35,782 nt of DNA from Candidatus Moraniibacteriota bacterium. Lineage in GTDB: Bacteria; Patescibacteriota; Minisyncoccia; Moranbacterales; UBA2206. The DNA lies in assembly GCA_037137555.1 (NCBI GenBank), contig JBAXKA010000003.1, forward strand, positions 1 to 35,782, written 5' to 3'. The stretch's first letter is position 1; every line of letters begins with the position of its first letter. Position numbers and translations under genes: made by a program. A model generated the notes under the pieces. That model was not told the origin of the DNA. It saw nothing but the letters and a program-made list of their open reading frames with translations, and did not search any database. Positions 175 to 35,674 of this stretch are shown here, piece by piece.

Positions 175-1977
175 TTGGCAAAATCTCCATTTACCGATAT
201 AATGAAAACAATGAAAATATCCACCAAATTCAATGCATACAAATTATTTTCCGCCCTCGGAATCTTTATTTTGGGGTTGGAATTTTTGGCGATTATTCTG
301 ACGCTATTCAAAATCTTTTATTGGCCTTTTTTTGCTCTCTATTTTTTAATTGGCAGTATTGTCTTGCTAACACTTTTTTTGCGCAATCACAAAAACTTAA
401 ATCGCTCGCAAGTTTTAATTTTTTTATTGCTTTTGCTATTTTCTTTTTCAGCTATTCTTCTTTCAACCTATTCCGCCGAACCATCCGTCTTTTCTGGACG
501 CGATCAAGGCTCATTCAGTGAAGCCGCCATTAGATTATCTCAAAATCATCAATTAACTTTCACAACAACCTCCTCGCAAGAATTTTTCAAAATTTATGGT
601 CCAGGCTCAGCCCTTAATTTTCCTGGCTTCAATTATACGCAAGAAGGAACATTGATTACGCATTTTTCTGTGGGCTATATTGCTTGGCTCGCTATTTTTT
701 ATAGCTTTTTTGGTCTCGCTGGCTTTCTAGTGGCTAATGGCATTTTGTTTTGCTTATTTTTATTCTCTTTTTTTGCTTTAATTAAAATTCAGACCAACTT
801 GCGTTCAGCTTGGGTTGGATTTTTTATTGTGATAAGCACTTTTGTTTTTTCTTGGTTTCTCAAATTCACCCTGAGCGAAAATTTAGCTTTAGGTTTTATT
901 TGGTTTGGGCTATTGGAACTCTCGCTTTTTTTGAAATATCGCCAGCAACTTTTTTTATTTTCCGCTCTCGGTTCTTTTTTATTACTCACTTTCACAAGGA
1001 TAGAAGCATGGGCACTGCTTTTTATGCTAGCCGTTATTCTTTTTATTTTACATAAAAAAACGAAAAATATTTTCTTAAACATACAAAAACAAAAAATATT
1101 TTGGCTTTTAGGATTTTTTGTCACTATTTATTTTATCACGCTCAAAGTCAATAGTCAGTTTTATCTTTCTTCGCTAAAAGGCCTTGTGAATTCTTTTTCT
1201 TCCACAGGAAATAGCTTAACTGCTATTTCTGCATTTATTTATTTAAGCAAAATTTTTTATTATTATGGTCTTTTGCTTTTTTTCATCATCGGAATATTAG
1301 GCATTTTTTATTTTATTACTAAAAAGAAATATTTTGCGCTTGTGCCTTTCTTCTTGCTCTTGCCGTTATTTATTTATCTCATCCACCCAGGAATCTCGCT
1401 TGACCATCCCTGGATGCTTCGTCGTTTTTCTTTTGCCCTTATTCCTTTGATGATTTTTTATACTATATTGATTATCGATCGCCTATTTTTGAAAAAGCTT
1501 TATTTTTTCTCACTAGCAATTTTTCTGATTATGGCAAACTTAACTTTTTTTCTGCCTTATACTTTTTTTTCGGAAAATAAAAATCTACTCACTCAAACAA
1601 AAACGCTTAGTGAAAATTTTTCAAATACTGATCTTGTGCTTGTCGATCAACTCGCCTCTGGTGATGGTTGGTCAATGCTTGGTGCGCCAATGAATTTTCT
1701 CTATGGAAAACAAGCGGTTTATTTTTTTAATCCCGCCGACTTAAATAAACTAAATATTAAAAAATTTAGTAATATTTATTTTATCATTCCGGATGAAAAT
1801 TTAGCTCTATATGAAAAATTCGGTCTTTTAGAAAAAATAATTCCCCAAAAAGATTATCAAATCACCAGAAATGCTTTTGTTGTTTCTGACCTGACAAAAA
1901 CTAGTGGACTATTTCAAGAATTTCCCCTAGAATCTCAACAGACCATAAAAGGCAAAATCTATTTATTAAAAAATTAA
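175..1977 (+). CDS. Polytopic membrane glycosyltransferase, GT-C fold (PMT_2/ArnT-like), putative
   Basis: 600-aa ORF with many hydrophobic helices followed by a soluble C-terminal domain, the same layout as the paralogues at 15835-19741. The track start is TTG; the first in-frame ATG is at 202. Confidence 0.6.
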   Translation: MAKSPFTDIMKTMKISTKFNAYKLFSALGIFILGLEFLAIILTLFKIFYWPFFALYFLIGSIVLLTLFLRNHKNLNRSQVLIFLLLLLFSFSAILLSTYSAEPSVFSGRDQGSFSEAAIRLSQNHQLTFTTTSSQEFFKIYGPGSALNFPGFNYTQEGTLITHFSVGYIAWLAIFYSFFGLAGFLVANGILFCLFLFSFFALIKIQTNLRSAWVGFFIVISTFVFSWFLKFTLSENLALGFIWFGLLELSLFLKYRQQLFLFSALGSFLLLTFTRIEAWALLFMLAVILFILHKKTKNIFLNIQKQKIFWLLGFFVTIYFITLKVNSQFYLSSLKGLVNSFSSTGNSLTAISAFIYLSKIFYYYGLLLFFIIGILGIFYFITKKKYFALVPFFLLLPLFIYLIHPGISLDHPWMLRRFSFALIPLMIFYTILIIDRLFLKKLYFFSLAIFLIMANLTFFLPYTFFSENKNLLTQTKTLSENFSNTDLVLVDQLASGDGWSMLGAPMNFLYGKQAVYFFNPADLNKLNIKKFSNIYFIIPDENLALYEKFGLLEKIIPQKDYQITRNAFVVSDLTKTSGLFQEFPLESQQTIKGKIYLLKN

Positions 1978-1988
1978 CTCTTGCTACT

Positions 1989-3335
1989 ATGTCTTTTGAT
2001 CTAACTAAAGAAATTAAATTAGACGAAAAAAGTTATTCCCAATATCGACGCTGGCAATTATTTTTTTATCTTACTGGCTTTGTCGCATCGCTCTATGTCG
2101 CTTATTTTATTTTTTTCCCTACCCAAGAATTTAATTTTTCTTTTTTAATGTTGACATCTAACAAAGGCAACGCCCTTAACCCCAGAAACTTTGATGGCAC
2201 GCTGATTACAGATGGAAATTTTTCCGCCAAACAAAAAAAATATTTTGATACATCACTTGTTGGCAGTTTTTCCAAAATTAAATTAAGCTTTACGCCGAAT
2301 AAACAATCTGCAAAACCAGAAAATATGCATATTGATCTGCGAAAGTCCTATCGTGCATTTCTTTATCTGGAAGGCGAACCAGTCGGATTCAAAAATGGCA
2401 CACTATTGGAAAATAATCATAATTTTTATTTAGTTTCTGACGGGAAATTAAGAAAATTTAGCAATCTTGAAATTATCGCATCGCTCGGTTTTCCGCAAAC
2501 GGCTTTTGTTACTATAAACAATATCACTGAATTAAATTATAATCTTTTGGGCGAAGAGATCACTGATCCAAAAAATTATCCTGCTGACACGATCTTTAAA
2601 ATTGCTAATTTTTATTATCAACTAAATTCTGCTGGCTCGTTAAATAAATTTATCAGCACCACAGCATTTCATAGTCAATATGACGAAAAATTAGCTATCA
2701 CCAAAGATCCTGACTTTCTCAAAAATTATTCTATCACGGAGAATCCTATTGGCTTTGCTGATGGAACGCTAATTTCCTATGGCACATCCGTTTTTATTGT
2801 GAGTAAAAATAAAATTTATCCGGTTGGCGATCCAGATATTTTCATCAATCAAGGTTATGCGTGGAACGATATTATCACAGTCAGCGGAGATGAATTTTCT
2901 CTCTATGAAAAAGAAAAGCTTTTCACACTTACCAGCATTCATCCGGACGGCACTATTTTTTTCACGCCAGATTCTGCCAAATGGTATCAAATTAAAAATG
3001 GCCAAAAACATGAATTGCCCTCAGAGAAAATTGCAAATTCTTGGCTTCAAAAAAATCCCATTCTTGTTTCCGCTAAAAGTCTTGATATTTTGGGCGGGTG
3101 CGAATTACAAAAAGAATTTTTTGGCAATTATTCCTGTCTAATTCCTCTGAACGATCAGGAAGACACGGCGGGAAAATATTACGAATTTACTTTTGCCACA
3201 AAAGACGATCTTAAAATTAACAATCTCAATGTGCTCTACGAAAAAAATATGACTATCCCCAATCTTAAATTAGCCCTACGCACTATGATTCTAAAAATAA
3301 AAGCCCGCTATGGCATTCAAACAAACTCACAATAA
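1989..3335 (+). CDS. Hypothetical membrane-anchored extracytoplasmic protein
   Basis: 448-aa ORF with one N-terminal TM helix (WQLFFYLTGFVASLYVAYFIFF) and then a large soluble domain. It starts 11 nt after the upstream GT-C gene, so is probably co-transcribed. No motif recognised. Confidence 0.6.
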   Translation: MSFDLTKEIKLDEKSYSQYRRWQLFFYLTGFVASLYVAYFIFFPTQEFNFSFLMLTSNKGNALNPRNFDGTLITDGNFSAKQKKYFDTSLVGSFSKIKLSFTPNKQSAKPENMHIDLRKSYRAFLYLEGEPVGFKNGTLLENNHNFYLVSDGKLRKFSNLEIIASLGFPQTAFVTINNITELNYNLLGEEITDPKNYPADTIFKIANFYYQLNSAGSLNKFISTTAFHSQYDEKLAITKDPDFLKNYSITENPIGFADGTLISYGTSVFIVSKNKIYPVGDPDIFINQGYAWNDIITVSGDEFSLYEKEKLFTLTSIHPDGTIFFTPDSAKWYQIKNGQKHELPSEKIANSWLQKNPILVSAKSLDILGGCELQKEFFGNYSCLIPLNDQEDTAGKYYEFTFATKDDLKINNLNVLYEKNMTIPNLKLALRTMILKIKARYGIQTNSQ

Positions 3336-3350
3336 TATTATCTAAACATT

Positions 3351-3755
3351 ATGCTCAACAAAAAAATTCATTCCCCAAATACGCTAACAATTTGCTATAA
3401 ATTATTGCATGACAGTTTGTTTATGCTAATTATTTTTTTCACACTAACCCTCATCACCGAAGCCGTTCTTCCTGGCACTATTATTTCGCATATTGGTTTT
3501 TCCAAAATAATTATTGCGATGCTTCTGAATATTTTTATCCTAAAAATACTGGAAAAAAAAATCACACCAGATCAAGTTGATAAAAATATTTGTCCAAAAA
3601 ATAATAATCTTAAAAAAATCATCATCCCCTTTTCCGCTCTTGGCGCACTGCTCATTTTCAACAGCCAACTAGGCATGAATATTTTTTTAAATTTATTTTT
3701 ACTATTAATTTGTGCGATTTTGGGCTATTTAAGTTATTGGATTTTGTTTGATTAG
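3351..3755 (+). CDS. Small integral membrane protein (4 predicted TM), hypothetical
   Basis: 134-aa hydrophobic ORF. Its last 161 nt plus about 90 nt downstream are duplicated at 5698-5947. Confidence 0.55.
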   Translation: MLNKKIHSPNTLTICYKLLHDSLFMLIIFFTLTLITEAVLPGTIISHIGFSKIIIAMLLNIFILKILEKKITPDQVDKNICPKNNNLKKIIIPFSALGALLIFNSQLGMNIFLNLFLLLICAILGYLSYWILFD

Positions 3756-3844
3756 TTTTTGTTTTTTTGTTATAGTTTGAGTGTGGTTAAGTCGTGCAAA
3801 ATAGCTGAAAACATTTTGGATATAAACGCATTTTGGCGAAATGC
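3595..3844 (+). repeat. Direct repeat copy 1 (about 250 bp): 3' end of the 134-aa gene plus downstream attI-like relic
   Basis: Matches 5698-5947 at a constant offset of 2103 nt. I found no mismatches in the first ~220 nt. Three mismatches cluster at 3814-3825 and the copies diverge completely after GGCGAAA (3841/5944). Confidence 0.95.
3776..3841 (+). other. Relic of the integron Pc/attI region (attI-like site without recombinase gene)
   Basis: TTTGAGTGTGGTTAAGTC (3776-93) resembles TTTGAGTATAATTAAATC (30943-60). CAAAATAGC resembles CAAAAATAGC. CTGAAAACATTTTGGATATAAACG (3805-28) matches CTGAAAACACTTCGGATATAAACG (31002-25) at 22/24. It is followed by TTTTGGCGAAA where attI has GTTATCTGAAA. 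A second copy lies at 5879-5944. Confidence 0.6.
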
Positions 3845-3923
3845 TATGCGCTTCGCTGTGAAAATGGTTTATTTATAAGGGGAAATGAGCTACTATGCAA
3901 TTATTAAACTAAATTAAAAAAAT

Positions 3924-4526
3924 ATGAAAGGACTTATTTACATAATAACAACGGCCGTTTCTGGTTTAATTAAAATAGGACAAACTGGCACGGGTAATTA
4001 TCAGGAGCGAATGCGTAATCTTGAGGCGAATGGCTACTATAATGTTTCTGGTCTTAAAAGATTTTTTGCGATCGAACTTGAAGATTACAACGATAAAGAA
4101 AATCTTTTAAAGGAAATTTTTAATAAACATCAAGTTGGGAACAGTGAATTATTTGCTCTTGATTATGATTTAGTGAGACAGCTTTTATTGTCATTCGAAG
4201 GCAAGGTGGTATATCCCAAAGATATAAACAAAGAAAAAGAATTTGATGAGGTTTCGAAAGCGAGAGAACAAGGGGTGCGGTTTAGTTTTTATAAAAAAGG
4301 TATCGGGAACGGAGAAGAAATTGTTTTTATAGCTGACAAAGAAATTACTGCGAAAGTAGTTGGCGAGCGCGAAGTAGAATATGGTGAACAAATTTGGAAA
4401 CTTGCACCATTAACATACAAAATATATGAGCAAAAGGGCGGATTAAATGAGAGCAAAGCATATCAAGGAGCCGCTTATTGGCAATATAAAAGCAAAAGAC
4501 TGAGAGATTTGCCTGATATTAATTGA
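3924..4526 (+). CDS. T5orf172 / GIY-YIG-superfamily domain protein with an uncharacterised C-terminal domain
   Basis: The N-terminus MKGLIYIITT..GLIKIGQTG..YQERMRNLE..NSELF fits the T5orf172 (MUG113) GIY-YIG-like pattern. The C-terminal ~90 aa ends in YQGAAYWQYKSKRLRDL, possibly DUF4357-like; this is from memory and unverified. Confidence 0.65.
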   Translation: MKGLIYIITTAVSGLIKIGQTGTGNYQERMRNLEANGYYNVSGLKRFFAIELEDYNDKENLLKEIFNKHQVGNSELFALDYDLVRQLLLSFEGKVVYPKDINKEKEFDEVSKAREQGVRFSFYKKGIGNGEEIVFIADKEITAKVVGEREVEYGEQIWKLAPLTYKIYEQKGGLNESKAYQGAAYWQYKSKRLRDLPDIN

Positions 4527-4531
4527 AAAAT

Positions 4532-4616
4532 ATGACGCAATCAAAAGGCTTAATTTAGGAGTTTTCAAGGCATTTTTATTAAAAATGACGCAATTGGCTT
4601 GAAATAATGACGCAAT
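4532..4616 (+). promoter_or_regulatory. Three direct copies of ATGACGCAAT upstream of / overlapping the Fic gene start (candidate operator)
   Basis: Exact 10-mers at 4532-4541, 4585-4594 and 4607-4616, each preceded by A-rich sequence. They lie in the 80-nt T5orf172-Fic intergenic region. Confidence 0.45.
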
Positions 4617-5671
4617 GGTGCTATGATGTATTTATGAATAAAAGACAACAACAAATCATAGAATTTGCCAAGAAAAATCATTCTTTCCAAAATAAAGAAT
4701 TGGTTACTTTTTTTGATGATAAATATTCCAGAGAAACAATTACCAGAGACCTGTCTTTTTTATGCACACAAAATTTTTTGCAAAAAAACGGTGCTGGAGC
4801 TTTTGTAGTTTATTCGCTGTCCGACGCATATGGAAGCTTAAAAGAAGTTGATATTCAAAAATATTTTAAAACTCCATATTTAAAAAGAGATGTAAAGGAA
4901 AGTTTTAATTTTGAAATCTTTTCCATATTAAAAGATGATATTTTTACAGTGGAAGAAAAAGAAAAGCTGGAAAACTTACAAAGAAAATTTATTAAAAATT
5001 TCTCCAAATACGATAGCCAAACGCTTATCAATAAAGAATTTGAAAGAATAATGATTGAGTTTTCTTGGAAGTCATCGGCAATAGAGGGGAATACCTACTC
5101 ACTCCTAGGCACAGAAGCCTTGATTAAAAATAATGTCATCGGGGAAGGCAAGACCAAGGAAGAAACTCAAATGATTCTCAATCATAAAGACGCTTTTAAT
5201 GAGGCGATCCAAAATAGGGCGCGTTTTATTAAATTACGATTGGCTGATGTTGAATATATCCATTCTGTTTTAACAAAAAAACTTGGAATAACCAAAAATA
5301 TTAGAAAAGCCGGGGTTGGCATTACTGGCACAAAGTATAAACCCCTGGATAATGAATCGCAAATCAAAGAAGCATTGCAAAATATGGTTGATTTTATCAA
5401 CAAAAAGGAATCATTTTTTGAAAAGGCCTTTTTGATTTCTATCCTTATCGCCTATATCCAGATTTTTGAAGATGGAAATAAAAGGACTTCGCGGATGATT
5501 TCCAATGCTATTTTATTAGCACATCATTCAATCCCACTTTCTTACAGAATCGTAGATGTTGAAGAGTACAAAAAGGCGATTATATTATTTTATGAGCTAA
5601 ATAATCTTGCTTATTTCAAACAGATATTTATAGAGCAATTCGAAGATGCGGTCAATAATTATTTCAAATAA
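4607..5671 (+). CDS. Fic/DOC-family protein with N-terminal winged-HTH and a degenerate Fic motif (His replaced by Gln)
   Basis: The Fic motif position reads IQIFEDGNKRTSR, versus canonical HxFx(D/E)GNGRxxR. An inhibitory-helix-like motif SSAIEGN ([ST]xxxE[GN]) lies upstream. The N-terminal ~60 aa look DeoR/wHTH-like. The likely true start is the ATG at 4634 (MNKRQQQ...). Confidence 0.75.
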   Translation: MTQWCYDVFMNKRQQQIIEFAKKNHSFQNKELVTFFDDKYSRETITRDLSFLCTQNFLQKNGAGAFVVYSLSDAYGSLKEVDIQKYFKTPYLKRDVKESFNFEIFSILKDDIFTVEEKEKLENLQRKFIKNFSKYDSQTLINKEFERIMIEFSWKSSAIEGNTYSLLGTEALIKNNVIGEGKTKEETQMILNHKDAFNEAIQNRARFIKLRLADVEYIHSVLTKKLGITKNIRKAGVGITGTKYKPLDNESQIKEALQNMVDFINKKESFFEKAFLISILIAYIQIFEDGNKRTSRMISNAILLAHHSIPLSYRIVDVEEYKKAIILFYELNNLAYFKQIFIEQFEDAVNNYFK

Positions 5672-5697
5672 CCACTTATGAACGAATCAGAAACAAA

Positions 5698-5947
5698 CAA
5701 AAAATAATAATCTTAAAAAAATCATCATCCCCTTTTCCGCTCTTGGCGCACTGCTCATTTTCAACAGCCAACTAGGCATGAATATTTTTTTAAATTTATT
5801 TTTACTATTAATTTGTGCGATTTTGGGCTATTTAAGTTATTGGATTTTGTTTGATTAGTTTTTGTTTTTTTGTTATAGTTTGAGTGTGGTTAAGTCGTGC
5901 AAAATAGCTGAAAACATGTTGGGTATAGACGCATTTTGGCGAAAGGC
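5698..5947 (+). repeat. Direct repeat copy 2: orphan 3' fragment of the 134-aa membrane-protein gene plus attI-like relic
   Basis: Duplicate of 3595-3844. It has no upstream in-frame start: the ATG at 5679 reads a different frame and stops at 5706-5708, so the coding part is a gene remnant. Confidence 0.9.
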
Positions 5948-6077
5948 ATTTTTTACTTTTGGGCAATCGCCCATCTCAAAAAAAGAATTTGAATTTTGTT
6001 TTTTTATTAATTTATAAAGGGGTATGAGGTGTTTTCTCCGCTACGAAAACGATTTAATTATATTGTAAAATATAGAT

Positions 6078-7670
6078 ATGAATACAACGACCATTAAACA
6101 ATTGTTGACCATAAAAGAGGCTTGCGAATGGGCAAGCTCGTTTTTAGGTCGTGCAATCAGTGAAACAAATATTTCTTACTTAATACAATATGGAAAAGTA
6201 AAAAAATATGGTGAAAATGGCAGTACTCAAATTCATATTAATGATTTAAAAAATTATTATCAATCATTTAACGGAACAAGAGAGGTTGAATGGAAAAAAA
6301 AGCTAGGCGATGACTTAAATTGGAGTTTGTCATTTGATAATTTAAGAGAAACAGATACCACAAAACATGTTCATAGGCTGCACCCATACAAAGGTAAATT
6401 TATTCCTCAATTAGTTGAGTATTTTATAGATGAACATACTGATGATTTTAAAAAACAATCCTTTTTCAAAAAAGGCGATATTGTATTAGATCCTTTTTCT
6501 GGTTCAGGGACAACTCTTGTGCAAGCAAATGAACTTGGTATTCATGCAATAGGTGTAGATATTTCTCGATTTAATTGCATGATAACCGATACAAAACTAC
6601 TAGACTATAACTTAAATTTATTAATACAAGACATCAAAACTATAAACTTAGCGATTACTAAATTTGAAACTGACGCAAAAATACAAGAATTTGAAAAAGA
6701 ATTATATTTTGAATTATCAAAATTCAACAATGAACATTTTCCATCCCCAGATTATAAAAGAAAAATTTATAAAAAAGAAATCGATGAAAATAAATATTCG
6801 GCTACTAAAGAAAAAGAATTTTTATCAATCTATAATAAATTAGTAAAAAAGTATAAAATTGAATTAAAACAAGAAAAAAATAACTCTTTTCTTGATAAAT
6901 GGTACATAAAAAATATACGAAAAGAGATTGATTTTGCATTTGAACAAATCAAGCAAATAAAAAATGAAAAAAATAAAAGAGTTTTGGCTGTGATATTAAG
7001 TAGAACAATTCGCTCTTGTAGGGCAACTACTCATTCTGATTTAGCTACATTAAAAGAACCTCAGACAACTACTTATTATTGTTGGAAACATAAAAAAATT
7101 TGCAAACCTCTTTTTTCTATTAAATATTGGTTTAGTCGTTATGCAAACGACACTATTGCTAGAATTAAAGAATTTCAAAAATTAAAAAATGGTGTACATT
7201 GGGCATCGATTACTGGCGATTCCAGAACCGTTGATATAGCAAAAGAAATTCAATTAAGAAATAAAGAATTTTATAATCTTATAAAAAACCAAAAGATTAA
7301 AGGGATATTTTCTTCACCGCCATATGTCGGACAAATAGATTATCATGAGCAACATGCTTATGCATATGATCTTTTCAGTTTTGAAAGAAAAGATGAGTTA
7401 GAAATTGGTCCATTATACAAAGGACAGGGAATGGAAGCCAAAAAATCGTATGTCGAAGGTATATCGCAAGTTTTGCTAAATTCAAAAAAATACTTTGCAA
7501 ATAATTATGATGTATTTTTGGTAGCAAATGATAAATGGAATTTATATCCTACAATAGCCGAGAAAGCTGGCATGAAAATTGTCAATCAATACAAACGACC
7601 AGTATTAAATCGCACAGAAAGAGATAAAAATCCTTATTCAGAAATAATATTTCATTTAAAAAATAATTAA
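6078..7670 (+). CDS. SAM-dependent DNA methyltransferase (N6-adenine or N4-cytosine), type II R-M
   Basis: HPYKGKFIPQLV...VLDPFSGSGTT (motifs X/I, aa ~101-146), GVDIS (motif II), and SSPPY (motif IV, aa ~411-415). A ~200-aa Lys/Glu-rich insert lies between them. The N-terminal ~45 aa look HTH-like. The gene stops 1 nt before the next ORF. Confidence 0.85.
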   Translation: MNTTTIKQLLTIKEACEWASSFLGRAISETNISYLIQYGKVKKYGENGSTQIHINDLKNYYQSFNGTREVEWKKKLGDDLNWSLSFDNLRETDTTKHVHRLHPYKGKFIPQLVEYFIDEHTDDFKKQSFFKKGDIVLDPFSGSGTTLVQANELGIHAIGVDISRFNCMITDTKLLDYNLNLLIQDIKTINLAITKFETDAKIQEFEKELYFELSKFNNEHFPSPDYKRKIYKKEIDENKYSATKEKEFLSIYNKLVKKYKIELKQEKNNSFLDKWYIKNIRKEIDFAFEQIKQIKNEKNKRVLAVILSRTIRSCRATTHSDLATLKEPQTTTYYCWKHKKICKPLFSIKYWFSRYANDTIARIKEFQKLKNGVHWASITGDSRTVDIAKEIQLRNKEFYNLIKNQKIKGIFSSPPYVGQIDYHEQHAYAYDLFSFERKDELEIGPLYKGQGMEAKKSYVEGISQVLLNSKKYFANNYDVFLVANDKWNLYPTIAEKAGMKIVNQYKRPVLNRTERDKNPYSEIIFHLKNN

Positions 7671-7671
7671 T

Positions 7672-8466
7672 ATGGCATTATCAAAAAATTTACAACAGAA
7701 GGTTTATAAATTTATAAAGGACAAAGTCCTAAAGAAAATTGACGCATACAATTTGAGCGATGAGGATTCATCAAAACCTTTTCAATATGCTCTTTTTACA
7801 AAAAAGGGTTACTTGGCAAAAGGATTTATTCATGGATGCGAAACAGCACTTGGGAACTGGCACGAAACCATAGCAAAAATTATTGCTACTGAAAATTTTG
7901 CAACTGCAAATAAATTACAAGGGCAAAACAAGTTGAAAGGAAAAATCACAAGAGAAGCACAAAGAACATTAGAAAATATTTTAAGTGATCTTGATAGTGT
8001 TAAAAGGGAGCCGAATCATAAGTCAGAGTCAGAAGAAATTTTCAATGCTAGCCAAAACCTCAAAAAAACAGAGGCCAGAATACAAACTGTTGATCTCTAT
8101 CTAGAAACAAAGGATGGTGAAGAAATTTATTTTGAAATAAAAGGGCCTAAGCCAAATAAAAACGAAATGAGAGCAGCAAAAAGAGACTTGCTAGAAATAT
8201 ATGCAATAAGATCAACAGAAAGCAAGAAAGTCAAAATTTATCTAGGTATGTATTATAACCCCTATTATCCTGAAGATTACCAAAGATGGACATGTTTAAA
8301 ATTCTTTGATGAAGGAAATGACTTTCTTATTGGCAAAGATTTTTGGGACTTCTTAGGAGGAAGTGGTGCTTACGAGGAACTGATTGATATTTATGAAAAA
8401 GTTGGAGAAGAAATAAGACCAGTGCTAGACCAAAAGTTCAAGGACATCGCAAAGAGTCAAAACTAA
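7672..8466 (+). CDS. Type II restriction endonuclease, PD-(D/E)xK fold (possibly TdeIII-like)
   Basis: 264 aa, translationally adjacent to the MTase. VDLYLETKDGEEIYFEIKGPKPN gives a D...ExK nuclease motif. The TdeIII family assignment is from memory only. Confidence 0.65.
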   Translation: MALSKNLQQKVYKFIKDKVLKKIDAYNLSDEDSSKPFQYALFTKKGYLAKGFIHGCETALGNWHETIAKIIATENFATANKLQGQNKLKGKITREAQRTLENILSDLDSVKREPNHKSESEEIFNASQNLKKTEARIQTVDLYLETKDGEEIYFEIKGPKPNKNEMRAAKRDLLEIYAIRSTESKKVKIYLGMYYNPYYPEDYQRWTCLKFFDEGNDFLIGKDFWDFLGGSGAYEELIDIYEKVGEEIRPVLDQKFKDIAKSQN

Positions 8467-8472
8467 TAAGAA

Positions 8473-8527
8473 GTTTTGGTTTTTGGCCATTCACACCCTC
8501 AATTCCCCTCTGCCAAAAATCCAAAAC
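8473..8527 (+). other. Stem-loop with conserved C-rich 24-nt loop immediately after the REase stop
   Basis: GTTTTGGTTTTTGGC (8473-87) pairs with GCCAAAAATCCAAAAC (8512-27), giving 15 bp with one bulge. The loop is CATTCACACCCTCAATTCCCCTCT. A homologue with a covarying stem lies at 32229-32281. Confidence 0.7.
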
Positions 8528-8574
8528 AAAAAAACTTATCTAATCTATTTAAAATAAAAAATAAATCAACCAAT

Positions 8575-25794: not shown

Positions 25795-26619
25795 TTAATT
25801 AACTAAAAAACTTTTTTTTGTTTCCTTGTTTGTCAGTAGTGATTTCATCTGAATAATCGCAGTAATATTTAATTTTTGAATTCGATCTTCAGAGGACAGT
25901 CCATCGCGAATCAACAATGCATTGATACTTTCGAGGTTTGATAAAACCACGAGCTGTTCGATTGAAGCGTAATCTCTAATATTTCCAACTAATTTTCTAT
26001 TTTGATCTCGCCATATTTTTGCAGTTATTCCAAACAAAGCAACATTTAGTAAATCCGCTTCGCTGGCATATTGCATATTAATTTGGTTTTTAGTTAATTC
26101 TGGCGGGATCAATTTCTCTTTTATGGCGTCAGTATGAATCCGATAATTTACTTTTGCCAAAGTTCTTTGAAAACTCCACTCAAGTTTTAAATTATTTGAT
26201 TCACTATCTTTAAGACGCTGAAATTCTTTGATCAGATATATTTTGAATTCAGCGCTAATCCACATTCCGAATTCGAATGCAATATCTTTATGCGCATATG
26301 TTCCGCCATATCTTCCAGTTGTCGCCTTTAATCCTATGGCATTAGTTTTTTCAACCCAGTCCTTTGCACTTATCTTATAATTATTTAAACCGGCCTTACT
26401 TTTAATTATGGCGAATTCGCCATAATTAAAAGCTGGATTATAAATACTTTCCCAAATCCCTATAAATTCAACCGTATTTCTATTTCGAAGCCAGTCAGAA
26501 ATGAAAAAATCACCATCTTTTGCTTTAAGCATGTCCGTCAAAGAAATATAATCATCACCATGATATTTAACGATGGTGATTTCACTTCCTTTTACAATAA
26601 TTTTCGTTTTCTTTGGCAT
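25795..26619 (-). CDS. KilA-N domain-containing protein
   Basis: YISLTDM...WLRNRNTVEFIGIWE...GRYGGTYAHKDIAFEFGMWISAEFKIYLIKEFQRLK is the familiar bacterial KilA-N family pattern. I chose the start at ATG 26619 (MPKKTKIIV); the track start 26652 overlaps the upstream gene. Confidence 0.8.
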   Translation of the reverse strand: MPKKTKIIVKGSEITIVKYHGDDYISLTDMLKAKDGDFFISDWLRNRNTVEFIGIWESIYNPAFNYGEFAIIKSKAGLNNYKISAKDWVEKTNAIGLKATTGRYGGTYAHKDIAFEFGMWISAEFKIYLIKEFQRLKDSESNNLKLEWSFQRTLAKVNYRIHTDAIKEKLIPPELTKNQINMQYASEADLLNVALFGITAKIWRDQNRKLVGNIRDYASIEQLVVLSNLESINALLIRDGLSSEDRIQKLNITAIIQMKSLLTNKETKKSFLVN

Positions 26620-26629
26620 ATACTTTTTT

Positions 26630-27682
26630 TTAAAACAAAACCGAAATGTCATCTGGGGAATTTTTTTCTAAATTATTTTCGAAATCTTTCAACTCGTTAT
26701 TTTTAAATTCCACTTGACCAGTTGCCTTATTCCAAAAAAGATCTTTTGCGAAAATATGAATGTCAAAATCTTTGATATATTTATCCAACCAACCAGCAAA
26801 ATTATTCGTGCGCACAAAGATTTGCTTCAACTGAACTTTTTCCGCATCATCCTCACTTTTTCTATCTTCCAGAAAAATAATATGATAACCCAGTGAGCTT
26901 TCAATTATTGCACTTCGTTCGCCCTTTTTTAGACCAAAGACAACCTGAGCTATTTCCGGCAACATTTCTGATCCGCTAAACCAACCCAATTCGCCATCAC
27001 TTTTAGCACTCTCACCTTCAGAATATTTTCGAGCAACATCAGCGAAAGTTTTTTTCTCAGTCAATTCTTTTTGAGCCAAAGTTATCTTATTTTTTGCTTC
27101 CGTTCTGGCTTTATCATTTTCTTTGATATTTTCAAATAATTTTTCTTGATACATATCCGGCTTCACAATATTTTCTTCAAAATCTGCTATTGTCCAACCA
27201 TATAATTTTGTTAAATTATTTTTAAGATATTCTTCACTACCATATTCTTGCATTTTTCGAGAAACTGCTTGAGAAATATCTTCCGGATTTATCGTCAAAC
27301 CTCTTTTTCTGGCTTCATTTTCAATTAGTTTATTTTCAATTAATTTATTTAAAATATTTTTTTCTTTAATTCGCAATCTTTTTTTTCCGTCCTCTGTTGC
27401 AAAATCAACACGCAAACCAAGCTCGGAAAAATCTTGATTTTCATAAAACATTCTGGCAGAATCCAGTTGACTTTTCAATTTATTTTCACTAATAAAATTT
27501 GTGCTCCAACTAGCCACGGGATAAGGCACAATCGCTGTGGTTTTTCGGGTCAATTTATTATCCACATTAAAACCATAAATTAAAATTGCGATTATGCTAA
27601 AATATAAAAACAAAAAAAACAAAAGGCTCAATATTATTGTGAGTAGTTTAATTTTTTTTAGATTAGCTTTTTTTTGCATCAT
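26630..27682 (-). CDS. Parvulin-type peptidyl-prolyl cis-trans isomerase (PrsA/SurA-like), membrane anchored
   Basis: GELGWFSGSEMLPEIAQVVFGLKKGERSAIIESSLGYHIIFLEDR is a PPIC rotamase signature, with an N-terminal TM helix. The track start 27691 is TTG; the first ATG is at 27682. Confidence 0.85.
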   Translation of the reverse strand: MMQKKANLKKIKLLTIILSLLFFLFLYFSIIAILIYGFNVDNKLTRKTTAIVPYPVASWSTNFISENKLKSQLDSARMFYENQDFSELGLRVDFATEDGKKRLRIKEKNILNKLIENKLIENEARKRGLTINPEDISQAVSRKMQEYGSEEYLKNNLTKLYGWTIADFEENIVKPDMYQEKLFENIKENDKARTEAKNKITLAQKELTEKKTFADVARKYSEGESAKSDGELGWFSGSEMLPEIAQVVFGLKKGERSAIIESSLGYHIIFLEDRKSEDDAEKVQLKQIFVRTNNFAGWLDKYIKDFDIHIFAKDLFWNKATGQVEFKNNELKDFENNLEKNSPDDISVLF

Positions 27683-30101: not shown

Positions 30102-30917
30102 TTATTCTAGTGGACTTTTAATTTTCCTTAACATCGGATTAGTCACTTTCGTATAAATCTGGGTTGTTCTAATGTTAGCATGCCCTAGCAATTCTTGCAC
30201 GAAACGAACATCTACGCCATTTTCTAACAAATGCGTTGCAAAACTATGACGCAAAGAATGAAATGTCGCCTCTTTTTTAATTCCCGCTTTTTTGAGTGCA
30301 GTTTCAAAAACTTTTTGTGCAGTTCTTTCGGTTAATTTTCCACCGCGTTCACTAGCGAAAATATAATCATTGAGTTTTTTGTTTGCAATTAATTTTTCAA
30401 CATCACCAATTAGTTTTTCCGGCAAAAGTGTTATCCGATCTTTATTTCTTTTAGCGTCTTTAATGTGAATCGTCAATTCCGCCAAACAAACATCTTTAAC
30501 TTTCAAATTAATAATCTCACTCACCCGCAAACCACCAGAATAAGCCAAAGCAATCATCAAATTATGTTTTTTATTATTAATTACTAGCAATATTTTTTCA
30601 ATTTCAGCGCGAGAAAGCACAATCGGTAACTTGCTTGGAGTCTTGGCAAAGCGCACATCAATTTTTCCCCGAAATTTCAAAACATTCCAGCAGAAGAAGT
30701 TAATCGCTTGCAAATTCTGATTAGACATCTGCGATGATTTCCCCTCATCTATTTTTGACAAAATATACTGCTTAATAAAATCCACATCAACAATTTCAAA
30801 ATTATTCTGTTTAGCTTTTAAATAATTAGTAACACAATAAGTATATGCACTGATAGTTTTTGGACTATATTTTCTCAATCGCAATTCATCATTTAGTTTT
30901 TTTAAGTAAAAATCCAT
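30102..30917 (-). CDS. Tyrosine site-specific recombinase, integron-integrase-like but lacking the IntI-specific insertion
   Basis: 271 aa. R (GGLRVSE), HSLRHSFATH (HxxR) and LLGHANIRTTQIYTKV (H, Y). SAM-like N-terminal domain (YSPKTISAYTYCVTNYL) and a ...KSPLE C-terminus. It is divergent from the cassette array. Confidence 0.85.
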   Translation of the reverse strand: MDFYLKKLNDELRLRKYSPKTISAYTYCVTNYLKAKQNNFEIVDVDFIKQYILSKIDEGKSSQMSNQNLQAINFFCWNVLKFRGKIDVRFAKTPSKLPIVLSRAEIEKILLVINNKKHNLMIALAYSGGLRVSEIINLKVKDVCLAELTIHIKDAKRNKDRITLLPEKLIGDVEKLIANKKLNDYIFASERGGKLTERTAQKVFETALKKAGIKKEATFHSLRHSFATHLLENGVDVRFVQELLGHANIRTTQIYTKVTNPMLRKIKSPLE

Positions 30918-30925
30918 TTATTTAT

Positions 30926-30954
30926 TTGACACATTATTACAATTTGAGTATAAT
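30926..30954 (+). promoter_or_regulatory. Pc-like cassette promoter, perfect sigma70 consensus
   Basis: TTGACA (30926-31), a 17-nt spacer, then TATAAT (30949-54). It points into attI and the cassette array. Confidence 0.65.
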
Positions 30955-30957
30955 TAA

Positions 30958-30986
30958 ATCATACAGAATATTCACAAAAATAGCAA
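30958..30986 (-). promoter_or_regulatory. Candidate recombinase promoter (Pint-like), face-to-face with Pc
   Basis: On the minus strand: TTGCTA (30986-81), a 17-nt spacer, then TATGAT (30963-58), about 40 nt upstream of the recombinase ATG (30917). Confidence 0.45.
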
Positions 30987-30998
30987 TATTATGCATGC

Positions 30999-31037
30999 TA
31001 TCTGAAAACACTTCGGATATAAACGAGTTATCTGAAA
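30999..31037 (+). other. attI-like site: two direct TATCTGAAA boxes; inferred crossover G|TT at 31027/31028
   Basis: TATCTGAAA occurs at 30999-31007 and at 31029-31037. The second box is part of GTTATCTG (31027-34), the exact reverse complement of cassette 1's inverse core CAGATAAC (32349-56). Confidence 0.65.
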
Positions 31038-31139
31038 TTTGCTTTTTCTTTTCGCCTATCGGCGACGCATTTCTGTAATGAATTAATTGAATTTATTTAT
31101 TTTAAAAGGGGGTATAAGGAAGAAAACTTTATTAATATT

Positions 31140-32222
31140 TTGAATACAAATATGGAAAAATTCTCACCAGAATTAGTACAAGCGCAAACTGAGGCTCTTG
31201 ATATTCAAAAAAAAGCAAAAGAGGAGAAAGAAAAGAAAGGAGAAGTCGGAAGTTTAAGCAACGAAGATTATGAGAATGCTTGCCTGCCCCGCGTTGAAAG
31301 TTATGAGAAATTTTTGGAGGAAAATACAAAACTAGAATCCTTCGTTGATCACATTGAGCAAAACTCCCCAAATGGCGAAATAAATATATACAGTCCTGAA
31401 TTTTGGTATTCCTATCAGAAATTTATTGAAACTGTTTGGACAAAAGAAGGATTGGCACAATTAAACAGTAAGGACTACGAGGATTTTGAAGATTATAGAC
31501 ATGATTCCAATAAAATGCGAAAACCGATTGATCATGTTTTTTCTAACGGTGCATCTATTTTCAGGGGTAACGAACATTTCAATAGAATAAAACAGCGTTC
31601 TCTTTTGAATACTTTAAATAAAAATGGCATATCTACTGAAAACCTGCAAACCATAAAAGATTCATTTGCACATTATTATCGTAGCGATGGCGGCTATGGA
31701 CCAAAAAATATTAGCAAAAGTGCCTTGGAGCAATCGTACTTACAACGAATTGAGGCAGTCAAAAAATTGAACCAAAGTCAAGAACTATCGAAAATAACCG
31801 AAATCTGGGATGAATACGGATTACTTGATTCTCTATCTAGCGAGGTCAGCACATGTTTTGGCGGGCGCAACGAAACGCCAATTATAAGAAAGATAAGAGA
31901 GAAGCACAAAAATTCTTTTAAGGAAAAAAAGTTTAAAGAAATTGAGTTAGCTATAGTTGAAACAATTACCTTAAACGGACTAAAGGATAGCTTTTTATTA
32001 ACAAAAGAGTATGACAAATTAATTGAAATAGAGAAAAAAGACCCAAATTTAATAAAATCAGCTATTGCTGGAACATCCGCCCTCACCTTTGTTGTACTTA
32101 CTTCCAATATAGTCTCAACAGTAGTTGGAGACGCTTACGCATACACCCCAATAGGTGCAGTTCCAAATATTGATAGTATTTCTCGCGAGATGAAAGAGTT
32201 TTGTTGCGACGTAGAAGAGTAA
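31140..32222 (+). CDS. Cassette 1 ORF: hypothetical protein with C-terminal TM helix
   Basis: 360-aa ORF (TTG in the track; first ATG at 31152, MEKFSPEL...). The N-terminus is charged and the C-terminus has a hydrophobic segment, SAIAGTSALTFVVLTSNIVSTVVG. No motif recognised. Confidence 0.6.
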   Translation: MNTNMEKFSPELVQAQTEALDIQKKAKEEKEKKGEVGSLSNEDYENACLPRVESYEKFLEENTKLESFVDHIEQNSPNGEINIYSPEFWYSYQKFIETVWTKEGLAQLNSKDYEDFEDYRHDSNKMRKPIDHVFSNGASIFRGNEHFNRIKQRSLLNTLNKNGISTENLQTIKDSFAHYYRSDGGYGPKNISKSALEQSYLQRIEAVKKLNQSQELSKITEIWDEYGLLDSLSSEVSTCFGGRNETPIIRKIREKHKNSFKEKKFKEIELAIVETITLNGLKDSFLLTKEYDKLIEIEKKDPNLIKSAIAGTSALTFVVLTSNIVSTVVGDAYAYTPIGAVPNIDSISREMKEFCCDVEE

Positions 32223-32228
32223 TAAGGA

Positions 32229-32281
32229 GTCTTTGTTTCTGGGCATTCACCCCTTAATCCCCTCTGCCCAAAAACAAAGAC
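32229..32281 (+). other. Stem-loop with conserved C-rich loop after the cassette 1 ORF (homologue of 8473-8527)
   Basis: GTCTTTGTTTCTGGGC (32229-44) pairs with GCCCAAAAACAAAGAC (32266-81) at 15/16 bp. The loop is ATTCACCCCTTAATCCCCTCT. The stem sequence differs from the 8.5-kb copy while pairing is kept. Confidence 0.7.
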
Positions 32282-32348
32282 AAAATTCAATTAATTCATT
32301 ACAGAAATACTATTCCTCTGCTGAGGAATGAAAAGAAAAAGCAAACAT

Positions 32349-32437
32349 CAGATAACACGGCATATCTGGTTACGGCTTTTTACAAAAGCCTCCACCCAAA
32401 TTGCTACGCAACTTCAGATATGCCGAAACGTTAGCTG
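32349..32437 (+). other. attC-like site 1 (89 bp)
   Basis: R'' CAGATAAC; P1 GGCATATCTG (32359-68) pairs with CAGATATGCC (32415-24); P2 GGCTTTT/AAAAGCC; conserved CCACCCAAATT (32392-402); R' GTTAGCTG (32430-37). Confidence 0.75.
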
Positions 32438-33815: not shown

Positions 33816-33822
33816 TTATGTG
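33626..33822 (+). other. attC-like site 2 (197 bp)
   Basis: R'' CAGCTAAC; P1 GGAGTAAACG (33636-45) pairs with CGTTTACTCC (33800-09); P2 33650-59/33683-92; conserved TCACCCAAATT (33693-703); P3 CGTTTTCC (33704-11) pairs with GGAAAACG (33787-94); R' GTTATGTG (33815-22). Confidence 0.75.
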
Positions 33823-34957: not shown

Positions 34958-34964
34958 TTAGGCG
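34766..34964 (+). other. attC-like site 3 (199 bp)
   Basis: R'' CACATAAC; P1 CCCATATCTG (34776-85) pairs with CAGATATGGG (34943-52); P2 AGGAAATTGAC (34791-801) pairs with GTCAATTTCC (34824-33); conserved CCGCCCAAATT (34836-46); P3 TTTCATCCC (34846-54) pairs with GGGATGAAA (34930-38); R' GTTAGGCG (34957-64). Confidence 0.75.
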
Positions 34965-35072
34965 AAAAAACTAAAAATTTCCTCTCTATTTTTGAAAAGA
35001 ATTTTTGGCAATTTTGCTCGGTCGATAACTCGGTATATAATTAAGATAAGTTTAACAAATTAAAAAAAAATT

Positions 35073-35627: not shown

Positions 35628-35674
35628 ATTGCCAAAAATTCTTTATCATTAAGAATGGAAATTTTTAGTTTCAT

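What the first reader, a model, noticed from the sequence alone, without database searches (positions are those of the whole stretch)
3842..8527. The T5orf172-Fic and R-M modules carry cassette-1-type leaders, and the R-M module a cassette-1-type 3' hairpin
Seen: after the GAAA box, all three leaders follow the same plan. Each has a T-rich run, then a tiny hairpin, then TTGAAT(T)T / TTTATTTAT, then a G-rich motif.
- Cassette 1: TTTGCTTTTTCTTTTC, GCCtatcGGC (31054-63), ...AATTGAATTTATTTATTTTAAAAGGGGGTATAAGG (to 31119).
- R-M: GGCATTTTTTACTTTT, GGGCaatcGCCC (5961-72), ...AATTTGAATTTT...TTTATAAAGGGGTATGAGG (to 6029).
- T5orf172: TGCTAT, GCGcttCGC (3848-56), ...GGTTTATTTATAAGGGGAAATGAG (to 3889).
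The REase stop and the cassette 1 stop are both followed, after about 6 nt, by homologous stem-loops (8473-8527 and 32229-32281). Downstream of the R-M hairpin the sequence (AAAATAAAAAATAAATCAACCAATTCAAT) only vaguely resembles the expected 3' arm, and it runs into the convergent GT4 gene. No attC-like site remains.
Inference: these defence genes were acquired as cassettes of the same family as integron cassette 1 and have since been fixed or decayed. This links restriction-modification and a putative Fic-based module to this cassette system.
Basis: partly seen in the sequence, partly recalled or inferred. Interest (0 to 1): 0.72.

Follow-up and report, generated by a model that had tools for sequence, protein, structure and literature searches.

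The report
Stranded integron-like defence cassettes in a CPR bacterium
A restriction-modification gene pair and a small nuclease-like gene in this tiny uncultured bacterium still carry the flanks of mobile gene cassettes, so they were captured by the genome's integron-like system and later stranded elsewhere; the neighbouring Fic gene came from a different source.

Summary
One of the three genes is wrongly included, and one alignment is in the wrong register.

**Host and array.** The window is from a Patescibacteria (CPR, Moranbacteria-like) genome. At 30.1-37.3 kb it carries an integron-like array next to a short Xer/IntI-like recombinase.

**R-M module (5936-8529): cassette origin well supported.**
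- A leader profile built only from other genomes gives its best hit in the region here (E=1e-19).
- The 3' hairpin belongs to a family of 18 copies in which 11 of 17 stem pairs show compensatory changes.
- The same MTase + TdeIII R-M is a true cassette with an intact attC-like site in two other CPR genomes (L179, next to the recombinase; L177, mid-array).
- In the window the R-M has lost its 3' arm, R'' box and attC-like site.

**T5orf172.** Its leader is a truncated cassette leader, homologous to a true T5orf172 cassette in L154.

**Fic.** It is not cassette-derived. Window 4531-5696 is an 88-89% identical fragment of type I R-M operons and includes the first 19 nt of hsdR.

**Upstream copies.** Both modules sit behind decayed copies of the platform's promoter/attI region, inside a 250-nt direct repeat.

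**Codon usage** does not discriminate these genes from core genes.

The parts
3595..3844 (+). Direct repeat D1, copy a. It holds the last 161 nt of the 134-aa gene, a promoter-like site and a decayed attI-like box.
   Evidence: D1, 250 nt, 98%; 3595-3814 is 100% identical to 5698-5917, and 4 mismatches fall in the last 30 nt.
3748..3776 (+). Promoter-like site TTGATT-17-TATAGT with TG before the second hexamer. It lies at the position of the TGnTATAAT promoter found upstream of attI in relatives. The second copy is at 5851-5879.
   Evidence: This is a consensus match only, and function is inferred.
3792..3846 (+). Pseudo-attI a. It has a degenerate hairpin-2/L box and an R-like box TTTTGGCGAAA (3831-3841) where a true site has GTTRRRYGAAA.
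   Evidence: attI profile from 24 other genomes, E=4e-4, second best hit in 41 kb.
3845..3923 (+). T5orf172 leader, a truncated type-1 cassette leader. It keeps GAAATGCTATG and the 3' third of the leader. The T-run, the GGGC/GCCC hairpin, TTGAATTT and the main G box are missing.
   Evidence: contiguous 83% homology of 3849-4540 with L154 4927-5620, where a full leader follows R' and an attC-like site. E=0.63 against the general profile.
3924..4526 (+). T5orf172-domain gene (200 aa, full length).
   Evidence: PF10544, E=1.5e-6; 213 metagenome relatives; the 80 kept are 89-95% identical in amino acids. DNA homology is usually limited to the gene plus or minus about 20 nt.
4531..5696 (+). Fragment of a type I R-M operon. 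It holds the hsdS-Fic spacer, HTH-Fic (345 aa from 4634, stop at 5671) and the first 19 nt of hsdR (5678-5696).
   Evidence: 88-89% nucleotide identity to L086-L096 (hsdM-OLD-hsdS-Fic-hsdR). Homology ends at 5696, one base before D1 copy b.
5698..5947 (+). Direct repeat D1, copy b. It includes pseudo-attI b (5895-5949), which is more decayed than copy a.
   Evidence: (E=1.6). An independent JGI contig, L003, spans 134aa-D1-T5orf172-Fic-D1-MTase.
5936..6077 (+). Complete type-1 cassette leader of the R-M module. Order: R-like box, T-run, hairpin GGGCaatcGCCC (5961-5972), TTGAATTT, G box AAGGGGTATGAGGTG (6017-6031), hairpin GTTTTC...GAAAAC, CGATTTA.
   Evidence: E=1e-19, the best hit in 41 kb to a profile built without window sequences. 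(z=5 against cassette 1). (86.6% to the L154 leader).
6078..7670 (+). N6/N4 DNA methyltransferase (530 aa, full length).
   Evidence: PF01555; 65-84% aa identity to the MTases of L177-L182.
7672..8466 (+). TdeIII-family type II restriction endonuclease (264 aa, full length).
   Evidence: PF09520, E=6e-58.
8465..8529 (+). Cassette-type 3' element. It is ATAAGAAG, then a 17-bp stem, with the loop TTCACACCCTCAATTCCCCTC.
   Evidence: 18 copies; 11 of 17 pairs with compensatory changes; 64 bits, E=1.7e-11; this copy is in the model's training alignment.
8530..8574 (+). Trailer with no 3' arm, R'' box or attC-like site. It abuts the stop codon of the convergent GT4 gene.
   Evidence: z=1.0, p=0.17 against the reverse-complemented leader.
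30102..30917 (-). Reference platform: the Xer/IntI-like tyrosine recombinase (271 aa).
30937..31045 (+). Reference platform: promoter (TTGACA-17-TATAAT at 30928-30956), attI and the R' box GTTATCTGAAAT (31027).
   Evidence: E=1e-24.
31027..32437 (+). Reference cassette 1. It has a type-1 leader, a 356-aa ORF, the 3' hairpin at 32221-32283, the 3' arm at 32283-32359 and attC-like site 1 at 32350-32437.
   Evidence: I7, I11; attC-like bottom strand folds at z=-6.2.

Best explanation
Region 3.6-8.6 kb is a small defence islet. It is assembled from cassettes of the CPR integron-like system whose active platform lies at 30.1-37.3 kb.

**The R-M cassette.**
- The MTase + TdeIII R-M was captured as a gene cassette.
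- It keeps the full cassette frame on the 5' side: an R-like box and a type-1 leader.
- It also keeps the cassette 3' hairpin.
- Everything beyond that hairpin is lost: the 3' arm, the R'' box and the attC-like site.
- Its 5' recombination box is mutated, TTTTGGC where a true site has GTTRRRY.
- It therefore can no longer be excised by the recombinase. It is a fixed, apparently intact type II R-M.

**T5orf172.** It also came from a cassette. About two thirds of its leader is deleted.

**Fic.** The gene behind T5orf172 is a fragment torn from a type I R-M operon and joined on by illegitimate recombination.

**The upstream copies.**
- Each module is preceded by a decayed copy of the platform's promoter/attI region.
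- The upstream 220 nt of these copies are identical and include part of the neighbouring gene.
- So the tandem arrangement arose by duplication or homologous recombination, not by site-specific insertion.

**Shown:** the homologies, the truncations, the junctions, and the existence of the same genes as true cassettes elsewhere.

**Inferred:** the order of events; transcription from the promoter-like site in the repeat; and activity of the R-M.
For: **Platform**
- The array has five cassettes bounded by R''-L''...L'-R' sites with GTTRRRY-type boxes.
- attC-like site 1 folds as an imperfect hairpin (z=-6.2).
- The recombinase/attI/array unit recurs in CPR genomes. At least two junction motifs lie upstream in 19 of 25 loci, with the attI junction at a fixed 86 nt from the recombinase start in most of the closer relatives.

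**R-M**
- Leader E=1e-19 to a profile built from other genomes.
- z=5 against cassette 1.
- Hairpin 64 bits against the hairpin model.
- Homologous R-M units are bona fide cassettes in L179 and L177.
- The HaeIII R-M + Shedu cassette in L007 has the same frame.
- The trailer shows no complementarity to the leader.

**T5orf172**
- Homology with the L154 cassette is contiguous from leader into gene.

**Fic**
- 88-89% nucleotide identity to hsd operons, including the start of hsdR.

**Repeat and pseudo-attI**
-.
- An independent contig, L003, has the same layout.
- Promoter-like TTGATT-17-TGtTATAGT occurs in both copies.
- All four ORFs are full length relative to their homologs.
Against: - The R-like box is not a canonical core. 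It is identical in both copies for 10 nt past the expected crossover point, which is not what two independent insertions would give.
- Leader pieces also occur outside arrays: L146 next to a tRNA, L181, and a leaderless R-M in L182. A leader alone therefore does not prove capture at this locus.
- Most T5orf172 copies, roughly three quarters of the 80 read, are not in cassettes.
- Composition and codon usage of the four genes fall within or close to the core range: distance 0.21-0.28 against 0.16-0.27 for core genes.
- No experiment shows that the recombinase acts on these sites.
Confidence: 0.72

Rival explanations
1. The repeat copies are live secondary landing pads. The recombinase still uses the attI-like boxes at 3792-3846 and 5895-5949 to insert cassettes, so the islet is a second, integrase-less array that works in trans.
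For: Both modules begin exactly after the GAAA box. Copy a is a significant match to the attI profile (E=4e-4). attI-gene-attI architectures are recombined by IntI1 in class 1 integrons (PMC12901181, abstract).
Against: - The core reads TTTT where GTTR is expected.
- Hairpin 1 is deleted and hairpin 2 is degenerate.
- Copy b scores E=1.6.
- No attC-like site follows either module.
- The duplication includes 161 nt of a coding region, and the Fic piece ends inside hsdR.
Confidence: 0.1
2. The leader and the 3' hairpin are general expression or stability elements (UTRs) of horizontally moving CPR genes. They are independent of the cassette system, and the R-M acquired them without ever being a cassette.
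For: Partial leaders sit outside arrays in L146 and L181. The hairpin shows strong covariation, as expected of a functional RNA or ssDNA structure. No SD-type function is evident, because genes of this genome lack SD motifs.
Against: In every locus where both ends could be read, the leader starts at an R' box and the hairpin is followed by a 3' arm, R'' and an attC-like site (L007, L012, L047, L154, L177, L179). The window's R-M leader is also preceded by an attI-like box.
Confidence: 0.1
3. The tandem layout is an assembly artefact caused by the 250-nt repeat. The T5orf172-Fic and R-M modules would then be alternative alleles in the population, not neighbours.
For: In one assembly the R-M lies on a different contig from the recombinase.
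Against: An independent JGI contig from another sample, L003, spans 134aa-D1-T5orf172-Fic-D1-MTase start. The two copies differ at four positions that track their downstream modules.
Confidence: 0.05
4. The leader resemblance is chance similarity between AT-rich intergenic DNA.
For: T5orf172 against cassette 1 gives z=0.7. MAFFT identity after the GAAA box is low.
Against: For the R-M: z=5, E=1e-19 to an independent profile, and 86.6% identity to the L154 leader.
Confidence: 0.02

Closest known systems
Integrons (IntI, attI, attC cassette arrays), including sedentary chromosomal integrons whose cassettes encode phage defence
   Same: - A divergent tyrosine recombinase, then a promoter, attI and a one-directional array.
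- Cassette boundaries at GTTRRRY-type boxes.
- attC-like imperfect palindromes of the form R''-L''...L'-R', in which L''/L' co-vary within a site and R'' matches the R' at the cassette's own 5' end.
- Cargo includes defence genes. Defence cassettes in integrons are reported in bioRxiv 10.1101/2024.07.02.601719.
   Different: - The recombinase is 271 aa and lacks the IntI-specific additional domain. It scores below the integron-integrase cut-off (201.8 against 265 bits) and is about as close to archaeal XerA.
- Cassettes carry long 5'/3' terminal inverted repeats plus a conserved leader and 3' hairpin.
- The host is Patescibacteria. My literature searches found no description of such arrays in that group.
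Cassettes fixed outside an array (secondary-site insertion) and unusual delta-attI-type cassettes of class 1 and 2 integrons
   Same: A cassette-derived gene sits outside the functional array with an incomplete recombination site, or a gene is flanked by attI-derived sequence (PMC12901181).
   Different: - The attI-like sequence here lies within a 250-nt repeat that also includes part of a neighbouring gene.
- The R-M lacks any 3' site.
- Those delta-attI cassettes were shown to be recombination-proficient, whereas these look immobile.
Xer/dif-based modules (IMEX elements, Acinetobacter pdif modules)
   Same: A Xer-like recombinase, and discrete gene modules bounded by short inverted-repeat recombination sites.
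   Different: The sites here are long structured attC-like palindromes, not 28-bp 11-6-11 dif sites. Modules are unidirectional, downstream of one attI next to the recombinase. A role of the recombinase in dimer resolution is unknown.
Defence islands built around type I R-M operons with embedded Fic
   Same: The Fic piece at 4531-5696 is 88-89% identical to such operons in Moranbacteria (L086-L096).
   Different: Only Fic and 19 nt of hsdR are present here. hsdM, hsdS and the OLD-family gene are absent.

Membership tests
Integron (sensu stricto) | An IntI integrase with the IntI-specific additional domain around patch III (Messier & Roy 2001, as cited in PMC9668308) | tested here: not met
   - TIGR02249 matches in two stretches at 201.8 bits, against a cut-off of 265. 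Residues 1-180 align to profile positions 2-180, and residues 194-270 align to positions 251-327 of PRK15417. About 55-70 profile positions are therefore absent.
- the alignment to VchIntIA (2a3v) is split in the same way. XerA (5hxy) matches in one stretch.
Integron (sensu stricto) | attC sites: imperfect palindromes R''-L''...L'-R' at the 3' end of each cassette, with a GTTRRRY core at the junction | tested here: met
   Searches show six junctions with boxes GTTATCT, GTTAGCT, GTTATGT, GTTAGGC, GTTATAC and GTTATGT. L''/L' are compensatory in attC-like site 2. In one search the bottom strand folds at z=-6.2. The IntegronFinder attC model was not available.
Integron (sensu stricto) | attI next to a divergently transcribed integrase, with a promoter reading into the array | tested here: met
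   (TTGACA-17-TATAAT at 30928-30956); the region is conserved in other CPR loci (24 were used for the attI profile), with the junction at a fixed 86 nt from the recombinase start in most of the closer relatives.
Integron (sensu stricto) | Recombinase-catalysed excision and insertion of cassettes | not testable with these tools
   Indirect evidence only. The same cargo occurs with different neighbours in different genomes (L047 against window cassette 1; L177 and L179 against the window R-M).
Gene cassette of this array family (R-M module 5936-8529) | A 5' boundary at an R' core that follows attI or an attC-like site | tested here: inconclusive
   An attI-like box precedes it, but the core reads TTTTGGC, not GTTRRRY.
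Gene cassette of this array family (R-M module 5936-8529) | The conserved frame: a type-1 leader and a 3' hairpin | tested here: met
   E=1e-19; 64 bits; this copy is in the model's training alignment.
Gene cassette of this array family (R-M module 5936-8529) | A 3' arm, R'' box and attC-like site | tested here: not met
   (z=1.0). No R''/L'' motif lies before the GT4 stop at 8575.
Gene cassette of this array family (R-M module 5936-8529) | Homologous units occur as complete cassettes elsewhere | tested here: met
   L179 and L177.
Gene cassette of this array family (T5orf172, 3845-4530) | Leader homologous to that of a bona fide cassette with the same cargo | tested here: met
   L154: attC-like site, R' box GTTATGTGAAAT, full leader, then T5orf172. 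The window copy retains only the 3' third, and scores E=0.63 against the general profile.
Gene cassette of this array family (Fic, 4531-5696) | Any cassette boundary or frame element | tested here: not met
   The flanks are the hsdS-Fic spacer and the hsdR start. The only hairpin-model hit there is noise (E=0.76).
Type II restriction-modification system (TdeIII family) | An adjacent DNA MTase and a TdeIII-family REase, both full length | tested here: met
   (PF01555; PF09520 at E=6e-58); lengths equal those of the homologs. Enzymatic activity and recognition site were not tested.
Xer/dif modules (IMEX, pdif) | Modules bounded by 28-bp dif-like sites (11-6-11) recognised by XerC/D | tested here: not met
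   The junction sites are 88-210 nt structured palindromes.

The most novel reading that the evidence does not exclude
Patescibacteria have their own, so far undescribed, integron-like system.
- It uses a short recombinase, intermediate between XerA and IntI, that lacks the IntI additional domain.
- That recombinase sits next to a conserved attI and to arrays of cassettes built on a stereotyped frame. The frame is a leader with a G box, a 3' hairpin whose C-rich loop mirrors the G box, and long terminal inverted repeats.
- The system trades defence genes (R-M, Shedu, T5orf172) among CPR lineages.
- It also seeds immobilised cassettes, together with copies of its promoter/attI, elsewhere in these very small genomes.
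Probability: 0.4. Interest if true: 0.8.

Novelty: new variant of a known kind. Interest (0 to 1): 0.55.

Why it matters
CPR bacteria have tiny genomes and few recognised mobile elements. How they acquire and exchange defence genes is poorly understood.

This locus shows a cassette platform supplying an R-M system that then became a fixed chromosomal gene. The same R-M is still mobile as a cassette in other CPR lineages.

The locus also gives sequence handles that standard integron finders would miss, because the recombinase lacks the IntI signature domain. These handles are the attI profile, the leader profile and the hairpin model. They could be used to survey cassette arrays across Patescibacteria.

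The conserved frame is a testable candidate for a new structural requirement of recombination, or for cassette RNA processing.

Tried and rejected
- **G-rich motif as a ribosome-binding site: rejected.** It lies 44-50 nt upstream of the start codons, and genes of this genome lack SD motifs.
- **Leader peptide after the G box: rejected.** Indels between homologous leaders break the frame.
- **Known RNA family: none found.** Rfam gave nothing at gathering thresholds or at E<=1 in the relevant regions.
- **Codon usage and GC as evidence of foreign origin: uninformative.** The four genes fall within or near the core range. Only MTase GC3 (0.18) stands out.
- **Recombinase as a housekeeping Xer tied to lepA: not supported.** lepA synteny holds in only 9 of 44 loci. 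Arrays are present in 19 of 25 loci.
- **Bacteroidetes-type promoter (TAnnTTTG), my first impression: dropped.** The organism proved to be Patescibacteria, with sigma-70-like promoters.
- **R-M, T5orf172 or Fic in the 80 recombinase loci fetched from genomes (L006-L085): no close homologs by tblastn.** The positive cases came from protein searches followed by context look-ups.
- **Literature on CPR integron-like arrays: nothing relevant in the held library.** Absence there is not proof that the system is undescribed.

Full report
**What is in the window**

The recombinase's relatives identify the organism as a Patescibacteria (CPR) bacterium close to Moranbacteria.

The gene order, taken, is:
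- three unknown ORFs at 175-3755;
- a T5orf172 gene at 3924-4526;
- an HTH-Fic gene at 4607/4634-5671;
- an N6/N4 MTase at 6078-7670 and a TdeIII-family REase at 7672-8466;
- a convergent GT4 gene, then glycosylation and housekeeping genes;
- a 271-aa tyrosine recombinase at 30102-30917 (minus strand);
- a one-directional gene array that runs off the window.

Using the source contig I extended the array by 5.1 kb. It has five cassettes bounded by boxes of GTTRRRY type: GTTATCT, GTTAGCT, GTTATGT, GTTAGGC, GTTATAC and GTTATGT.

Each junction is an attC-like imperfect palindrome. An example is 32350-32437: CAGATAAC-ac-GGCATATCTGG ... CAGATATGCC-gaaac-GTTAGCTG. The bottom strand of this site folds far better than shuffled sequence (z=-6.2).

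**The platform is a recurrent CPR unit**

- The recombinase has more than 100 cluster relatives at 72-93% identity.
- In the other CPR loci read (24 of them were used for the attI profile) the upstream region is conserved. The order is a TGnTATAAT promoter, two inverted repeats whose arms co-vary, then AAACGA|GTTRRRYGAAAT. The junction lies 86 nt from the recombinase start in most of the closer relatives.
- Two or more junction motifs lie upstream in 19 of 25 loci that have enough sequence. Synteny with lepA holds in only 9 of 44 loci.
- The recombinase lacks the IntI-specific additional domain. It matches integron-integrase models in two pieces and scores below their cut-offs. It is about as close to archaeal XerA.
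- I therefore call the system integron-like, not an integron.
- I found no description of such arrays in CPR in the held literature.

**Checking the observation: the R-M module**

*Upstream box*
- The 34-nt box upstream of the 'GAAA box' is present at 3795, 5898 and 30992.
- I built an attI profile from 24 other genomes, with no window sequence in it.
- It hits the true attI at E=1e-24. Its next best hit in 41 kb is 3792-3846 (E=4e-4).
- The copy at 5895-5949 scores E=1.6. It differs from the first copy at three positions inside the box.

*Leader*
- After the box, the R-M leader and the cassette-1 leader align from end to end. The score is z=5.0, and 0 of 300 shuffles reach it.
- A leader profile built from nine leaders of other genomes gives its best hit at 5936-6070 (E=1e-19). 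Cassette 1 scores E=1.5e-8.

*3' stem-loop*
- The 3' stem-loops are homologous.
- They belong to a family of which I collected 18 copies.
- All copies have ATAAGGAG, a 15-17 bp stem and the loop TTCACCCCTnnCCCCTC. Eleven of the 17 stem pairs show compensatory changes.
- The covariance model finds only these two strong copies in the window, at 64 and 79 bits. Both window copies are in its training alignment.

*Downstream*
- Beyond the R-M hairpin nothing cassette-like remains. Trailer against reverse-complemented leader gives z=1.0, compared with z=17.8 for cassette 1.

**Checking the interpretation for the R-M**

- **L179.** A recombinase 54% identical to the window's is followed by attI and the R' box GTTATGTGAAAT. 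Next comes a type-1 leader with GGGCTATCGCCC. The genes are an MTase (72% aa), two inserted genes and a TdeIII REase (82% aa). After them come the 3' hairpin, a 3' arm complementary to the leader, the R'' box CACATAAC and a complete attC-like site.
- **L177.** This is a Peregrinibacteria MAG. The same R-M (REase 93% identical) lies between two attC-like sites, behind an EcoRI R-M + ATPase cassette.
- **L007.** The first cassette holds a HaeIII-type REase, a C5 MTase and Shedu SduA. It sits in the same frame, and its leader matches the window's R-M leader.
- **L181.** It keeps a partial leader and an R''/L'' relic. **L182** has a naked R-M next to a tRNA.

So the R-M family moves as a cassette, and it also occurs stripped of its cassette flanks. 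The window copy is one such stranded case.

**T5orf172**

T5orf172 against cassette 1 gives z=0.7, and against the general profile E=0.63.
- The window's 3849-4540 is nevertheless contiguous, at 83% identity, with L154 4927-5620.
- L154 reads attC-like site, R' box GTTATGTGAAAT, a full type-1 leader, T5orf172, a 280-aa ORF, the 3' hairpin and the next R' box. That leader is 86.6% identical to the window's R-M leader.
- The window leader keeps GAAATGCTATG and then jumps to CGCTTCGCTGTGAAAATGGTTTATTTATAAGGGGAAA. This matches the part of the L154 leader that lies after the main G box.
- T5orf172 is a very compact mobile unit. Homology is usually limited to the gene plus or minus 20 nt, and 213 relatives were confirmed, the 80 kept being 89-95% identical in amino acids.
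- In most of the 80 loci read it directly follows another coding region, in most of these an XRE-type HTH gene by its C-terminal sequence. Only L154, L141, L146 and probably L144 carry leader sequence.

**Fic**

- Fic is not part of a cassette.
- Window 4531-5696 is 88-89% identical in DNA to hsdM-OLD-hsdS-Fic-hsdR operons of other Moranbacteria. The match runs from 103 nt upstream of Fic to 19 nt inside hsdR.
- The second copy of the repeat begins one base later, at 5698.

**The repeat**

- D1 (3595-3844 and 5698-5947) includes 161 nt of the 134-aa gene.
- The first 220 nt are identical between the copies. The last 30 nt, which hold the attI-like box, differ at four positions. The sequences diverge completely at 3845 and 5948.
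- An independent JGI contig has the same layout.
- This pattern fits duplication or homologous recombination, not attI x attC insertion.
- Each copy holds a promoter-like site, TTGATT-17-TGtTATAGT. It lies where relatives have their array promoter. Its function is inferred.

**Mechanism and confidence**

- The R-M is most likely an intact type II system. It would be expressed from the repeat's promoter-like site or from within its leader.
- It was captured as a cassette and can no longer be excised.
- I put about 0.72 on the overall stranded-cassette account. Confidence is higher for the R-M, moderate for T5orf172, and Fic is excluded.
- The rival accounts, each scored in its own section of this report, are live secondary landing pads, general UTR elements, an assembly artefact and chance similarity.

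**Novelty**

- Defence genes in integron cassettes are already known (bioRxiv 10.1101/2024.07.02.601719). So are cassettes fixed outside arrays and attI-derived unusual cassettes (PMC12901181).
- What differs here is the system itself: a CPR host, a recombinase without the IntI domain, and a stereotyped cassette frame.
- I therefore rate it a new variant of a known kind.

Noticed in passing
window 31024-31094 / 32283-32359; 32430-32564 / 33492-33633; 33815-33841 / 34747-34773; 34957-34987 / 35652-35682: Every cassette has long 5'UTR/3'UTR inverted repeats, up to 32 nt at 100% identity. They extend the R'/R'' pairing outward so that the ORF sits inside a long potential stem. This is not a feature of classical integron cassettes. 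It could lengthen the attC-like hairpin in the excised circle, or form an RNA duplex for processing.
   Followed up: partly
window 8465-8529, 32221-32283; extension 40650-40710; L007, L012-L014, L025, L029, L040, L042-L044, L047, L050, L154: The loop of the 3' hairpin (TTCACCCCTnnCCCCTC) is the reverse complement of the 5' G box (GAGGGGnAnAAGGTG). The two co-vary within a cassette: TGAGG/CCTCA in the window R-M and GGGGTG/CACCCC in L012. No Rfam family matches.
   Followed up: partly
window 33825-33926, 34967-35072; extension 35875-35983: Cassettes 3-5 share a second leader family (TTTTTGGCRAwT...GGTCGAwAACTC; pairwise z about 7). It also appears in the first cassettes of L016, L029, L035 and L042.
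   Followed up: partly
beyond the window end: extension 37138-40710 (L001, reverse complement): A PEP-utilising enzyme gene (809 aa) and a 282-aa ORF follow the last attC-like site. They have a type-1 leader (E=9.5e-14) and a 3' hairpin, so a large metabolic gene appears to be a cassette.
   Followed up: no
window 30102-30917 (-) and L006-L050: The 271-aa recombinase is 72-93% identical across many CPR lineages, and about 40% identical to DPANN archaeal XerA-like proteins. It lacks the IntI additional domain, yet is accompanied by attI and cassette arrays in 19 of 25 loci.
   Followed up: partly
window 30957-31026 and relatives: Two inverted repeats lie between the promoter and the R' box..ATAATATTCG..GCAATATTAT.. 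and ATAyGAAAACACTTCrTAT. Their arms co-vary between genomes. The second has the same form as the L''/L' boxes of the attC-like sites.
   Followed up: no
window 4533-4616: ATGACGCAAT occurs three times (4533, 4585, 4607) upstream of and at the start of Fic. The homologs are 345 aa, so the likely start codon is 4634.
   Followed up: no
L086-L096: Close Fic homologs (91-92% aa identity) are embedded between hsdS and hsdR of type I R-M operons that also encode an OLD-family ATPase. In L091-L096 a 23S rRNA-IVP-like gene is present as well.
   Followed up: no
L179 3673-4997; L181 3295-4998: In relatives, extra genes are inserted between the MTase and the TdeIII REase. L179 has 79-aa and 362-aa unknown ORFs, and L181 has an AIPR abortive-infection protein.
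   Followed up: no
window 25795-26652 (-): A KilA-N domain gene sits among housekeeping genes (HtrA, SurA).
   Followed up: no
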